Origin: Candidatus Sulfomarinibacteraceae bacterium
GTDB lineage: Bacteria > Acidobacteriota > Thermoanaerobaculia > Thermoanaerobaculales > Sulfomarinibacteraceae
Direction of reading: 5' to 3'
DNA length: 64,000 nucleotides
Assembly: GCA_963796455.1 (NCBI GenBank)
Contig: CAWCLO010000001.1
Coordinates: 480,001-544,000, forward strand
Positions 25,367 through 52,428 of this stretch are shown piece after piece (position 1 is the stretch's first letter; the number at the start of each line of letters is the position of its first letter). Under the pieces are notes generated by a model that saw only the letters and a list, made by a program, of their open reading frames with translations, ran no database searches and was not told the DNA's origin. The position numbers and the translations under genes were made by a program.

Positions 25367-25739
25367 CACTCGAGTCCAAAAGAGTGCCATCGGACAGCGT
25401 TCAGGGACAGGGTCAGCGAACGGGAGTCAGCGTCAGCGTTCAGTCATCATCGGCCATCGTCGGCGACAGGGTCAGTCTGACTGGCATCGAGATCCGAAAT
25501 CACGACCTCCGGTTGAGCTAACGCCACGCCGTCACGGCACCAGATCGCTGCGGCTGAACACTGGACACTGTTGCCTGTCGCTGACGCTGGATCCTGACGC
25601 TGGACCCTGTCGCTGCCGCTGCAATTCGGGATCGGGATCGAGAACGTGCCAACCGCCAACCGAATATGCCAGAAACCAACCCGTAAACCACGTGTTGTCA
25701 GGTGAGTAACTTCATGACAATCTGCTTTGGACAGCAGTG
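25367..25739. mobile_element. TIR element copy 4 (internal deletion, ORF-less)
   Basis: AT-CACTCGAGTCCAA...TTGGACAGCAGTG-AT, intact core, and an ORF-tail remnant GAAATCACGACCTCCGGTTGAGCTAACGCCA. Confidence 0.85.
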
Positions 25740-30732: not shown

Positions 30733-31004
30733 CTTCGTCGCCTCCAAAGGAATCCCGATCCGCCTGGGCGGTACCGGGGCGGGGAGTATACATGCCTTCC
30801 CCAGCGAGGACAAGGGGTCGCGGGCTGCCCGCAGGGAAACGGAACGGGTCCCGTCGTTCGATGCTCGATACTGGATGCTAGATGCTAGATCACTGCTGTC
30901 CAAGACATCATCTCAGACAGCGATCAGGGACGGCGACAGCGATCAGTGTTCAGCATCAGCGAACAGTAGTCAGCGTCACGTTTGACTGGTATGGAGCCCT
31001 GAAA

Positions 31005-31378
31005 TCAAGACTTTGGGTTGAGTAAACGCCAGGTCATCGCACGGACTTGATCGAAGGCCTTCATCGCTTCACCGGCTCCATTCCGGTTGACCGCCCCAGC
31101 GTGGACGAGGAGCTCCAGGTGGCTGTCGACCTCTTTCGCCGAGGCGTAGGCGATTCTCCAGTGGTTCGATCGGTCTCTACCAATCGGCCGTGCCCTTCTG
31201 CCAGATTCGCAGGGACCGAACTTGCCGACCGGATGACCTGATCGGCAATGGACTTCAGCGGAGCTGGAACCCTCATCACGAGCTTGATCGCGATTCCTGC
31301 TGCTTCGAGGGCTTTCGAGTGGGCAACGAGGTTGGTGGTCGTGGCGGCTGAGGAAATGGTCACCTCCGGGTCGTTCAT
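31005..31378 (-). pseudogene. Four-helix-bundle protein (Avd / 23S rRNA intervening-sequence protein-like), frameshifted near 31182
   Basis: IADQVIRSASSVPANLAEGHGR in one frame continues as GRDRSNHWRIAYASAKEVDSHL...VRAMTWRLLNPKS* in another; about 124 aa when repaired. Confidence 0.88.
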
Positions 31379-31391
31379 GCCCATATCCACA

Positions 31392-31462
31392 AGCCGGTGT
31401 GGTGGCCGATGTCAAGGATGCCCTGCACCCTGCCTGTCCTTGACATCGGCCGCCCACCGGCT
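31392..31462. promoter_or_regulatory. Strong hairpin immediately upstream of the four-helix-bundle start
   Basis: 15-bp perfect stem GGCCGATGTCAAGGA/TCCTTGACATCGGCC, extended by AGCCGGTG/CACCGGCT. Confidence 0.75.
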
Positions 31463-31964
31463 ACCTATTCTGTTGAACGACCCGGTGGTGGCCACTTCGC
31501 CGACTGGACTCCTGATCGCTGCCGCTGGACACTGATTGCTGATCTCCGTCGCTGATCCCTGTCGCTGACGCTGCCTCCTGTCGCTGTCCCTGCACCTTGG
31601 ACGCTGTCGCTGCCGCTGCAATTCGGACGCGGACGCGGACACGGGCACGGGCACGGGCACGGACAACCGCGAACCGGATATGCCAAAAACCAACCCGTAA
31701 ACCACGTGTTGTCAGGTGGGTAACTTTTCGTGAGATTCTGTTTTGGACAGCAGTGATGCGAGATGCTGGATCCCACAACCACTTGGCAGAGGGGCACGGG
31801 GGGAGAGGGGCGGAGGACAGCCCGGCATCCTCGCTATCGCTATCGGGATCGCTATCGCTATCGAACGGCTGCTGTGGATATCGACCTCGAAAGGTGGAAA
31901 GGAGCCGACGGGAAAGGGAGAACCACTCGGCACCAATTTCTCCTAAACGCGAATGTCGCCTCCC

Positions 31965-32099: not shown

Positions 32100-32269
32100 G
32101 CCGATCCCGATCCCGAAAGGGAGAAAGGGAGAAAGGGGGAAAGGGAGAGAAGGGAGAACCGTGCCGGAAGGATCTGCTCATGATAAGGAGCAGGGTCCTC
32201 TGCTCCTCTGCTCCTCTGCTCCTCTGCTCCTCTGCTCCTCTGCTCCTCTGCTCCTCTGCTCCTCTGCTC
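32100..32269. repeat. Composite octamer repeat: (AAAGGGAG)n - spacer - (CTCCTCTG) about x9
   Basis: 8 perfect CTCCTCTG units at 32203-32266 plus partial units. Confidence 0.9.
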
Positions 32270-34765: not shown

Positions 34766-35005
34766 GATCCCGTTTCCGAAAAGGAGAAAGGGAGAAAGGG
34801 AGAAAGGGAGAAAGGGAGAACCCTACCGGATGCACCGTTCGTGATAAGGGCCGTGTCTCCCCTGCTCCCCTTCCCTGCTCCCCTGCTCCCCTGCTCCCCT
34901 GCTCCCCTGCTCCCCTGCTCCCCTGCTCCCCTGCTCCCCTGCTCCCCTGCTCCCCTGCTCCCCTGCTCCCCTGCTCCCCTGCTCCCCTGCTCCCCTGCTC
35001 CCCTG
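34766..35005. repeat. Composite octamer repeat: (AAAGGGAG) about x5 - spacer - (CTCCCCTG) x16 perfect
   Basis: 16 consecutive perfect units at 34878-35005, with imperfect units from 34857. Confidence 0.93.
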
Positions 35006-42299: not shown

Positions 42300-42828
42300 C
42301 ACTGCTGTCCAAAACTGCTCGTCAATTGAAGTTGCCCACCTGACACCACGAGGTTGACCGGTTGGTTTTTGGCATTTCCGGTTCGTGGTTGCTCCGGGGT
42401 CCGAGTCCGCGTCCAAATTACAGCGGCAGCGACAGTGTGCAGTGGCAGCGACACCGACAGTGATCAGCGGCAGGGAACAGCGACAGAGGACAGCGTTCGG
42501 CGGCAGCGATCAGGAGTCCAGTCGGCGAAACGGCCACCTCCGGGTCTTTCAACAAAAGGAACAGCCGCTGTGGTGTCGGCGTCGCGCCTGCCCACCGTGC
42601 GGCCGAGACGGCCGCACCACCAAGGCCGGATCCCCGAGGAATTAGTGCTGTTCACTGTCCCGGCCGCTGATCGCTGACGCTGATGACTGAACACTGCCGC
42701 TGGCGACTGTTCGCTGTCGCTGCCCCGGCCGCTGATCGCTGACGCTGACTCCTGATAGCTGACGCTGTCTGCCGTTCCCCGTCGCTGTCCCTGCACGCTT
42801 ATCCGAAACTCAGTCTTGGACAAGAGTG
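42300..42828. mobile_element. TIR element copy 7 (two-ended, opposite orientation, REP-like doublet as cargo)
   Basis: CACTGCTGTCCAA...TTGGACAAGAGTG; doublet at 42569-42620. Confidence 0.85.
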
Positions 42829-42854
42829 ATCGAACATTGAGTAACCGTGGGGAT

Positions 42855-42922
42855 CTCCCTTTCTCCCTTCTCCCCCCTTCTCCCTTTCTCCTCTGCCCTT
42901 CTGCTCATCTGCTCCTCTGCTT
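42855..42922. repeat. Pyrimidine octamer tract (CTCCCTTT)n then (CTCCTCTG-like)n
   Basis: Complement of the AAAGGGAG tracts, followed by degenerate CTCCTCTG units. Confidence 0.7.
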
Positions 42923-52023: not shown

Positions 52024-52428
52024 CACTCTTGTCCGAGACAGGTTCTCGGCTACCGTTCAGGGACGGCGACAGCGATCAGCGTCAGAGACAGGGAACAGCG
52101 TTCAGTAGTCAGCGGCAGCGACCAGCGGCCGGGGCAGCTTCAGCTTCGGCGAACAAACGACCCGAAGGTGGCCACGCTGTCGCGGCACCTGATCGCTGTC
52201 CACTGATCGCTGTCCACTGACCGCTGTCCCTGATCGCTGTTCCTGATCACTGCCCCCTGTCGCTGTTCGCTGTTGCCTGTCGCTGCCGCTGCAAATCGGG
52301 CACGGACGCGGACGCGGACACGGGCACGGGCACGGGCCACCGCGAACTGGATATGCCAAAAACCAACCCGTAAACCACGTATTGTCAGATGGGCAACTCC
52401 ACATGACGATCTGTTTTGGACAACAGTG
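52024..52428. mobile_element. TIR element copy 8 (two-ended, no cargo)
   Basis: CACTCTTGTCCGA...TTGGACAACAGTG; core matches at 30 of 32 positions. Confidence 0.85.

What the first reader, a model, noticed from the sequence alone, without database searches (positions are those of the whole stretch)
30860..31775. The element inserts in phase into 7-bp tandem arrays with an AT duplication
Seen: deleting the element plus one AT restores an uninterrupted heptamer phase. Copy 5 gives GATGCTC GATACTG GATGCTA GATGCTA GATGCGA GATGCTG GATCCCA. Copy 1 gives ATTCCTC ATTCCTG ATTTCCA ATTCCTT ATTCCTC. Copy 4 gives GATTCAG AATTCAG GTTGCAA AATCCAG CATCCTG CATCCTG. Copy 8, with GC/GT flanks, gives GGTCGGA GTTCGGA GTGAGGA. 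Half copy 6 is preceded by ATCTTGA ATTTGGA AT. The heptamer sequence differs between sites. Inference: targeting recognises 7-bp periodicity or array structure rather than one sequence, using the arrays as safe landing pads; alternatively the arrays are generated by the element's machinery.
Basis: partly seen in the sequence, partly recalled or inferred. Interest (0 to 1): 0.88.

Follow-up and report, generated by a model that had tools for sequence, protein, structure and literature searches.

The report
IS4 cassette landing in heptamer arrays
This small repeated element has the ends of an IS4 jumping gene but carries a four-helix-bundle gene instead of a transposase; it sits between 9-base duplications, about half of them inside 7-base tandem repeats, likely because the transposase that likely moved it favours AT-N5-AT sites, which such repeats supply in overlapping clusters.

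Summary
The junction strings are real, but the duplication is 9 bp (7+2), not AT. Outside arrays, 9-bp flank identity is 0.71 versus 0.32 shuffled, and 2 bp is not significant. The element is a 0.3-0.9 kb cassette with 16-bp inverted ends and a TIGR02436 gene. Autonomous IS4 elements with the same ends exist elsewhere but were not found in this assembly. Array association is real: 35 of 69 rebuilt sites versus 1.6% background. In this genome it concerns one family, ATNCWGN, which matches the motif learned from non-array sites. Other heptamer families are not enriched beyond that motif, but neighbouring units raise the per-site rate 5-9-fold. The same arrays occur in relatives lacking these ends. 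One transposase clade sits in several different heptamers (21 of 34 ends versus 6 of 122), confounded with array-rich hosts. The scan already called the cassette IS4-derived on other windows of this genome; the targeting analysis is added here.

The parts
30860..30890 (+). Left part of the GATSCWG-type heptamer array (GATGCTC GATACTG GATGCTA GATGCTA GAT)
   Evidence: sequence; TRF period 7, 4.4 copies
30882..30890 (+). Left copy of the 9-bp target duplication, ATGCTAGAT
   Evidence: genome-wide length tests
30891..30906 (+). Left terminal inverted repeat (family majority CACTCTTGTCCAAGAC)
   Evidence: same 16-mer upstream of IS4 transposase genes, e.g. L221, L148
30915..30980 (+). Internal degenerate CAG-type 6/7-bp repeats, left arm of the cargo module (bounds approximate)
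31005..31378 (-). TIGR02436 four-helix-bundle gene; this copy is one base short and frameshifted near codon 66; family length 124 aa
   Evidence: (28.8 bits, cut-off 24); 74 cassette-type domains, 58 intact ORFs
31393..31462 (-). Long hairpin just upstream of the gene start
   Evidence: predicted -52.9 kcal/mol, z -7.7
31497..31665 (+). Internal degenerate GCTGTC-type repeats and CGGGCA hexamer run, right arm of the cargo module (bounds approximate)
31661..31755 (-). Conserved right end of about 95 bp; terminal inverted repeat CACTGCTGTCCAAAAC at 31740-31755
   Evidence: its profile matches best the right ends of the array-associated IS4 clade
31756..31764 (+). Right copy of the 9-bp target duplication, ATGCGAGAT (1 mismatch)
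31756..31775 (+). Right part of the heptamer array, running into a CCAC-rich tail
   Evidence: similar uninterrupted array plus tail in L175, L305, L306
13279..13730 (.). Gene-less copy with a decayed left end, in an ATTCCT-type array; 9-mers differ at 3 bases
25367..25739 (.). Gene-less copy with oppositely reading flanks; 9-mers differ at 4 bases
42300..42828 (.). Gene-less copy without a duplication (7 of 9 differ)
52024..52428 (.). Gene-less copy; 9-mers GGTCGGAGC / GTTCGGAGT

Best explanation
The element is a transposase-less cassette with IS4-type ends that lies between 9-bp duplications (7+2, not 2), and it was likely moved by an IS4 transposase supplied from elsewhere, whose likely AT-N5-AT target preference would draw it into heptamer arrays that were likely there first. 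Shown: 16-bp inverted ends shared with intact IS4 elements; a 9-bp duplication; the motif ATNCWGNAT at array and non-array sites; a 5-9-fold higher per-site rate when matching units are adjacent; the same arrays in genomes without these ends. Inferred: the transposase dimer makes a 9-bp staggered cut and prefers A-T at positions 1-2 and 8-9. Only a period of 7 puts one dinucleotide at both places in every unit, so an AT-containing heptamer array is a cluster of overlapping near-palindromic targets, the arrangement reported to be optimal for Tn5/IS50. Survival of intergenic insertions would add to the bias. Duplications then decay with age, and deletions remove one end in many copies.
For: Duplication length: duplicated units closer than neighbouring units at 40 array sites, less close at 13, tied at 14; p=2.7e-4; duplication decay tracks end decay, rho 0.40, n=66. 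Partner: L082 is a 1411-bp element with these ends and an NF033592 transposase (251 bits, cut-off 115); L221 has both 16-mers identical to the cassette majority; among 54 metagenome elements with both ends the only exact duplication length is 9 (5 cases); seven further exact 9-mers. Motif: a symmetric matrix from 34 non-array sites gives A1, T2, C4, W5; 113 non-array half-sites of relatives outside the clade show A1 0.57, T2 0.44, A8 0.47, T9 0.68 against 0.30 background. Period: arrays abutting an end are 91 of 540 (7-mer), 1 of 323 (6-mer), 1 of 337 (8-mer), 0 of 28 (9-mer). Cluster effect: perfect ATNCWGNAT sites are hit 1 of 76, 12 of 182 and 18 of 153 with 0, 1 and 2 matching neighbours (p=0.027). 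Arrays first: G015, G004 and G022 have 264, 75 and 65 array matches and only background end matches; 0 of 15 sampled G015 array loci have an end; 32 of 38 exact-duplication array sites have a neighbour unit that differs from the duplicated unit. Tn5 precedent: passage in PMC1525189.
Against: The cognate transposase was not found in G000 (90.5% complete), G006, G021, G008 or G015, so mobilisation in trans was not observed. The 9-bp matrix explains only 15.5% of insertions in arrays against 35 of 69 seen, and 2.7 expected against 29 seen in the ATNCWGN family; the Tn5-type cluster effect that fills this gap is borrowed, not measured. Only 22 of 89 G000 pairs have an exact duplication, and 43 of 54 metagenome elements with both ends have more than 2 mismatches (chimeric assembly or rearrangement is assumed, not tested). 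Clade members sit in arrays without AT at both ends (AATTAAGAA, ACTTTAGAC). No true empty allele of any site was found. Purifying selection on the cargo gene (pN/pS 0.18; singletons 0.37) is not explained. 37 of 178 outer flanks are themselves repeated, so some sites may not be independent insertions.
Confidence: 0.68

Rival explanations
1. One IS4 clade has evolved real array recognition: it reads 7-bp (sometimes 8-bp) periodic DNA or its structure, with sub-lineages tuned to different units, and uses arrays as safe sites.
For: A 22-row clade (SH-aLRT 99 and 100) has 21 of 34 ends in arrays against 6 of 122 outside. Units differ: GACTTTA, GAATTAA, GATACAA, GTATTAG, TTTTTAG, ATCCWGC, ATTCATC, and 8-mer CTTTGTGT. 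The register is fixed: A at 1 and 8 in 18 of 20 ends, the other two being the reverse complement. An array term still improves 9- and 13-bp models (beta 1.6). Other repeats in G000 abut arrays at 4 of 198 ends.
Against: Confounded with host: distal flanks hold arrays in clade loci (198 of 6464 bp) and not outside it (0 of 32968 bp). In G000, other heptamer families are hit no more than the 9-bp motif predicts (6 seen, 4 of them near-family by eye, 3.3 expected). The array term vanishes in a 23-bp sequence model (beta -0.32). A distant relative outside the clade also sits in an array (L156). The 12 clade-diagnostic residues are scattered single substitutions. The clade was picked after seeing the labels, and kin are not independent.
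Confidence: 0.17
2. The four-helix-bundle protein binds heptamer arrays and steers or helps the transposase, which would explain selection on the cargo.
For: TIR-less TIGR02436 genes have a heptamer array within 130 bp in 19 of 29 loci (11 on both sides) against 6 of 110 control windows. Four other such genes in G000 lie between 8-, 8-, 6- and 7-mer arrays. Cargo pN/pS is 0.18.
Against: The 387-bp G021 element has the same ends, an unrelated interior and no such gene, yet 10 of 15 sites are arrays. Short and gene-size copies use arrays alike (22 of 42, 13 of 24). The cassette's own arms are CAG-type, and those arrays are not targeted (AACAGCG 0 of 8, AGCGAT 1 of 76). Action in trans is not excluded.
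Confidence: 0.07
3. The arrays are footprints: each insertion (9-bp duplication) followed by excision and rejoining through the shared AT would add one 7-bp unit.
For: The arithmetic works (9-2=7), the unit family equals the target motif, and hit arrays are longer than unhit ones (5.1 versus 3.7 units).
Against: Long pure arrays occur in G015 with no ends nearby. Several equally common heptamer families in G000 have almost no elements. Relatives outside the clade have the AT..AT bias and almost no arrays. Only 6 of 38 exact sites have both neighbours identical to the duplicated unit. Longer arrays simply offer more targets.
Confidence: 0.05
4. The cassette spreads together with its flanking array by gene conversion or by copying of a larger repeat module, so the association counts few independent events.
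For: Some flanks are shared between copies (L064 and L072); gene copies carry many intermediate-frequency variants; oppositely reading flank pairs exist (8).
Against: 141 of 178 outer flanks have fewer than 3 genomic copies. Site-specific 9-mers match on both sides far better than shuffled pairs. The pattern recurs in G006, G021 and autonomous elements.
Confidence: 0.03

Closest known systems
IS4 family, IS4Sa subgroup (De Palmenaer et al. 2008, PMC2266710; passages and sections 6-7 read)
   Same: Ends CA------T, 8-10 bp direct repeats, size 1150-1750 bp and the DDE and Y(2)R(3)E(6)K motifs fit the autonomous partner (1411 bp, 9 bp; D130, D196, E299, Y292, R295, K306).
   Different: The cassette has no transposase. 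The passages read do not mention tandem-array targets ('tandem' has 0 hits in the text). No comparison with named IS4Sa members was run.
MIC231 mobile insertion cassettes of the IS231 subgroup (titles in the reference list and a passage on IS231 passenger genes in PMC2266710; mobilisation in trans recalled)
   Same: IS4-family ends around a passenger gene without a transposase.
   Different: Different ends and duplication length (9 versus 10-12 bp), 295 ends in one genome, cargo of unknown function under purifying selection, array targets.
ISRm22 (IS4) and other REP-targeting insertion sequences (Tobes and Pareja 2006, PMC1525189; passages read)
   Same: An IS4 element confined to a dispersed intergenic repeat with a palindromic consensus; hybrid copies without matching repeats.
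   Different: The target here is a 7-bp tandem array, not a REP hairpin; about half of sites, not all; 9 bp rather than 6 bp.
Tn5/IS50 target choice (seen second-hand in PMC1525189; primary paper not read)
   Same: [quoted passage not shown]
   Different: A different subgroup and motif; here the clusters are natural genomic arrays and the bias is about 30-fold over intergenic background.
Intergenic heptamer repeats of Xanthomonas and Nostoc (PMC4692102) and Beggiatoaceae (PMC4679880); passages read
   Same: Intergenic, often inverted-pair heptamer arrays of unexplained origin.
   Different: Rehm et al. state that they generally did not find the repeats associated with insertion sequences; here they are the main target of one and flank TIGR02436 genes.

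Membership tests
IS4 family / IS4Sa (autonomous partner) | Single DDE transposase with D(60-110)D(100-150)E and Y(2)R(3)E(6)K | tested here: met
   NF033592 251 bits, cut-off 115; D130, D196, E299, Y292, R295 invariant and K306 nearly invariant in 45 sequences
IS4 family / IS4Sa (autonomous partner) | Ends CA------T, length 1150-1750 bp, direct repeat 8-10 bp | tested here: met
   CACTGCTGT..., 1411 bp, 9 bp against Table 1
IS4 family / IS4Sa (autonomous partner) | Transposase clusters with named IS4Sa members | not tested
   No named IS4Sa protein was fetched; the IS50 end pattern was not formally excluded
IS4 family (the cassette itself) | Encodes its own transposase | tested here: not met
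   Only a TIGR02436 gene lies inside; no match to the transposase profile in G000
Non-autonomous IS derivative (MIC/MITE type) | Inverted ends and duplication length shared with an autonomous IS | tested here: met
Non-autonomous IS derivative (MIC/MITE type) | Mobilised in trans by that transposase | not testable with these tools
   Needs an assay; partner not found in five carrier or related assemblies
2-bp-core elements (TA/AT-duplicating transposons, IS110-type recombinases; features recalled) | 2-bp duplication or core at the junction | tested here: not met
   k=2 not significant at non-array sites, k=9 significant; exact 9-mers with unlike ends
REP-targeting IS, type 1 association | All copies break one repeat at a fixed position | tested here: not met
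   The register is fixed, but 34 of 69 sites lie outside arrays
DGR/Avd-type retroelement (features recalled) | Adenine-biased mutagenesis | tested here: not met
   Per-base change rates A 0.056, C 0.082, G 0.077, T 0.061 in 32 copies; a reverse transcriptase partner was not searched for
TIGR02436 four-helix-bundle proteins (cargo) | Match above the curated cut-off | tested here: met
   28.8 bits versus 24 for the broken window copy; family profile hits PDB 2gsc and 2rld

The most novel reading that the evidence does not exclude
A lineage of IS4 transposases has become a tandem-repeat-homing transposon: it reads the periodic arms left by four-helix-bundle gene modules, changes unit preference between sub-lineages, and in this genus has captured such a module as cargo that is under selection because it helps find or open those arrays. 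This would link bacterial heptamer repeats, a protein family of unknown function and a safe-harbour transposase in one system.
Probability: 0.2. Interest if true: 0.82.

Novelty: new variant of a known kind. Interest (0 to 1): 0.55.

Why it matters
The origin and role of bacterial heptamer arrays are unexplained, and one study reported them as generally not linked to insertion sequences (PMC4692102). Here they are the main landing site of an IS4 lineage, and the 9 = 7 + 2 geometry offers a simple, testable reason why period 7 and not 6 or 8 is used. Intact transposases with the cassette's ends are identified (L221, L208, L082), so the question can be put to a standard transposition assay, and a DDE enzyme with strong intergenic-array bias could be a useful insertion tool. 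The side result that TIGR02436 genes sit between inverted arrays across the phylum points to a candidate source of the arrays. If the bias is only sequence preference meeting an array-rich host, it is a tidy but modest extension of known Tn5 and ISRm22 behaviour.

Tried and rejected
A 2-bp AT duplication was rejected, as was a 16-bp one (non-array p=0.17). The only PF01609 hit in G000 (L001) has different ends. No IS256 match in five genomes. The cognate transposase was not found in G000 by single protein or profile; those searches rest on incomplete assemblies. DGR-like adenine bias was not seen. Empty alleles: no run holds half of the window's words (best share 0.18). Contigs of four runs gave no joint that skips exactly the element; two joints skip element and array together in relatives and are not informative. 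The rplS spacer of 23 congeners holds no copy of the element (one loose single end match, three loci with under 160 bp of spacer), but the spacers do not align, so they are not empty alleles. The transposase profile has no significant match among solved structures (best E 0.045); no fold was predicted. A complex prediction for transposase plus cargo protein was not available, so binding is untested. The promoter scan found no site inside the right end. The careful tree did not finish; quick trees were used. Dropped rows: 2 nested pairs over 1 kb; ends with more than 4 TIR mismatches; 20 of 89 pairs with more than 3 mismatches in the 9-mer for the site models; 15 of 102 rows under 59% identity in the second tree; L304 from the 30 TIGR02436 loci. 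Literature searches that found no report of an IS targeting heptamer arrays or of TIGR02436 with arrays: (listings of an open-access library only; supplements not read).

Full report
What is there. The stretch 30891-31755 is an 865-bp element between two parts of a heptamer array, upstream of rplS. It has 16-bp inverted ends, degenerate internal repeats, a predicted long hairpin (z -7.7) and a TIGR02436 four-helix-bundle gene, frameshifted in this copy. The genome (5.0 Mb, 10 contigs) holds 295 ends with at most 4 mismatches (185 left, 110 right), forming 89 pairs, plus 74 cassette-type gene domains and 58 intact ORFs. Across 32 full gene copies, median identity is 0.89 and pN/pS is 0.18, or 0.37 for singleton changes (simple count without transition correction); there is no adenine bias. 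Earlier scan notes call the host acidobacterial; I did not test that.

The duplication is 9 bp. Over 78 paired copies, flank identity peaks at k=9 (0.774 versus 0.493 for shuffled pairs), with echoes at 2, 16 and 23. At 25 non-array sites only k=9 is significant (0.711 versus 0.32, p=0.0005; k=2 p=0.073; k=16 p=0.17). Inside arrays the two duplicated units are closer to each other than to their neighbours at 40 sites, less close at 13 and tied at 14. Exact 9-mers occur in 15 of 23 G006 copies and 8 of 17 G021 copies; five exact ones have unlike first and last dinucleotides. In G000 only 22 of 89 are exact, and the decay tracks decay of the ends (rho 0.40, p=0.0009). 59 of 74 near-exact duplications have AT at both junctions, which is why it looks like an AT duplication.

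The mover. A search of 25 congeners for PF01609 found in G017 a 1411-bp element (L082) with near-identical ends and a 402-aa IS4 transposase (NF033592). Further relatives were fetched (41 genome loci; 19 family loci; the best 80 of 216 metagenome loci). Among 54 metagenome elements with both ends, 5 have an exact duplication, always 9 bp, 6 more differ at 1-2 bases, and 43 have none. PMC11708052 (abstract read) names recombination between copies and adjacent deletion as common causes of missing duplications; chimeric assembly is also possible, and neither was tested. L221 has both 16-mers identical to the cassette majority, and profiles of the cassette ends match one clade best. Ends, size, repeat length and motifs fit IS4Sa in Table 1 of PMC2266710. 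The transposase was not found in G000, G006, G021, G008 or G015, so action in trans is inferred. G021 carries a 387-bp element with the same ends and an unrelated, gene-less interior.

The array bias is real. 34% of 271 ends abut 7-periodic DNA against 0.2% of random positions. 35 of 69 rebuilt target sites lie in arrays against 1.6% of intergenic positions. Other dispersed repeats of the genome abut arrays at 4 of 198 ends. Arrays abutting an end number 91 of 540 for period 7, 1 of 323 for 6, 1 of 337 for 8 and 0 of 28 for 9. G006 and G021 give 15 of 18 and 10 of 15. Elements sit inside arrays, with 2.0 units before and 1.9 after.

Sequence or periodicity. In G000 the bias concerns one family: AGCATCC 31 of 66 and AGGATGC 13 of 15, against about 1 in 24 to 48 for five other common heptamers. 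A symmetric matrix trained only on 34 non-array sites gives A-T-n-C-W-G-n-A-T, the 7+2 window of that family. Relatives outside the clade show the same A1/T2/A8/T9 bias at 113 non-array half-sites. This matrix lifts the expected array share from 1.6% to 15.5%. It accounts for the other heptamer families (6 seen, 3.3 expected, p=0.11) but not for the main one (29 seen, 2.7 expected). Perfect ATNCWGNAT sites are hit at 1 of 76 when isolated, 12 of 182 with one matching neighbour and 18 of 153 with two (p=0.027). An array term improves 9- and 13-bp models and vanishes in a 23-bp sequence model. So the target is the motif plus neighbouring copies of it. [quoted passage not shown] I take this as the likely mechanism; it is borrowed, not shown here. 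Coding masks came from a crude ORF caller, so the intergenic denominators are approximate.

Which came first. G015, G004 and G022 have 264, 75 and 65 matches to the array pattern and only background matches to the ends. None of 15 sampled G015 array loci has an end, and two show the same array-plus-CCAC tail as the rebuilt copy-5 site; L175 has one in the rplS spacer. At 32 of 38 exact-duplication array sites a neighbour unit differs from the duplicated unit. The arrays therefore likely predate insertion. No true empty allele was found. A likelier source of arrays is the cargo family itself: TIR-less TIGR02436 genes have a heptamer array within 130 bp in 19 of 29 loci across the phylum, on both sides in 11, against 6 of 110 control windows, and four other such genes in G000 lie between 8-, 8-, 6- and 7-mer arrays. 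The control windows are mostly coding, so this comparison is generous. The cassette may have arisen when IS4 ends landed around such a module (inference).

The bolder reading. In quick maximum-likelihood trees a 22-row clade (support 99 and 100) has 21 of 34 ends in arrays against 6 of 122 outside (15 of 34 and 3 of 122 at a stricter cut). The units differ between members, and the register is fixed. A 7-row subclade sits in ATCCWG- and ATTCAT-type arrays like the cassette. But clade hosts are array-rich (198 of 6464 distal bp) and the others are not (0 of 32968), the clade was chosen after seeing the labels, and one distant relative also sits in an array with an exact 9-mer (L156). Evolved array recognition and an old AT..AT preference meeting array-rich hosts cannot be separated with these data.

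Unexplained. Selection on the cargo gene is not explained. Unpaired left ends outnumber right ends 88 to 29, and most have lost the right end together with its flank. Oppositely reading flank pairs occur in one sense only (8 versus 0; 5 versus 0), which fits deletion between inward-facing array pairs better than reciprocal recombination (inference).

Papers: PMC2266710 (passages, sections 6-7), PMC1525189, PMC4692102, PMC4679880 and PMC8557372 (passages; the last not used), PMC11708052 (abstract). No supplements were read; the target-site figure and end alignments of PMC2266710 could bear on the subgroup call and on precedent. MIC231 mobilisation in trans and the features of IS110 and DGR systems are recalled. 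Searches found no report of an IS targeting heptamer arrays; the library is open-access only.

Verdict: observation partly confirmed; interpretation partly supported; a new variant of a known kind (IS4-derived cassette with repeat-biased targeting); interest 0.55.

Noticed in passing
L275-L303; G000 C1:983116-983433, C4:1278079-1278393, C10:733016, C9:3022: TIR-less TIGR02436 genes lie between short tandem arrays, often inverted, each gene with its own unit (19 of 29 loci; four in G000 matching common array families of that genome). A candidate source of intergenic arrays.
   Followed up: partly
L042-L058 (G021): A 387-bp element with the same ends but a REP-like palindromic interior and no gene; near-identical copies, 10 of 15 sites in arrays.
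   Followed up: partly
L004:1290-2300 (G014), L005:1500-2400 (G020): The hairpin-plus-gene core occurs without these ends, next to other 7- and 8-mer arrays and, in L004, inside a larger inverted repeat.
   Followed up: no
L308, L310, L311, L312, L319 (G015): Long GATGCTG arrays are followed by one shared 40-bp sequence ending in TGTCAAGGG, like an arm of the cassette hairpin; possibly the end of another module.
   Followed up: no
G000 C1:2061-2810, C4:786703-792256, C5:55717-56527 and others: A second large dispersed family (0.5-1.2 kb, up to about 20 copies) bounded by inverted 8/9-bp purine-rich repeats; contents not examined.
   Followed up: no
window 32196-32269, 34778-34820, 34857-35005, 42854-42921: 8-mer arrays (TCCTCTGC, GAAAGGGA, CTCCCCTG x19) in intergenic spaces, not used by the element.
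   Followed up: partly
genome-wide; window 15330 (left end only), 19893 and 40869 (right ends only): Unpaired left ends outnumber right ends 88 to 29; most keep a G-rich array on their outer side and have lost the right end with its flank.
   Followed up: partly
L203, L204: Two clade transposases sit in 8-mer CTTTGTGT arrays; in L204 the flanks are continuous in an 8-bp phase rather than showing a 9-bp duplication.
   Followed up: no
L001:1284-2678 (G000 C7): An unrelated DDE insertion sequence with inverted ends of about 26 bp, the only PF01609 hit in this genome.
   Followed up: partly
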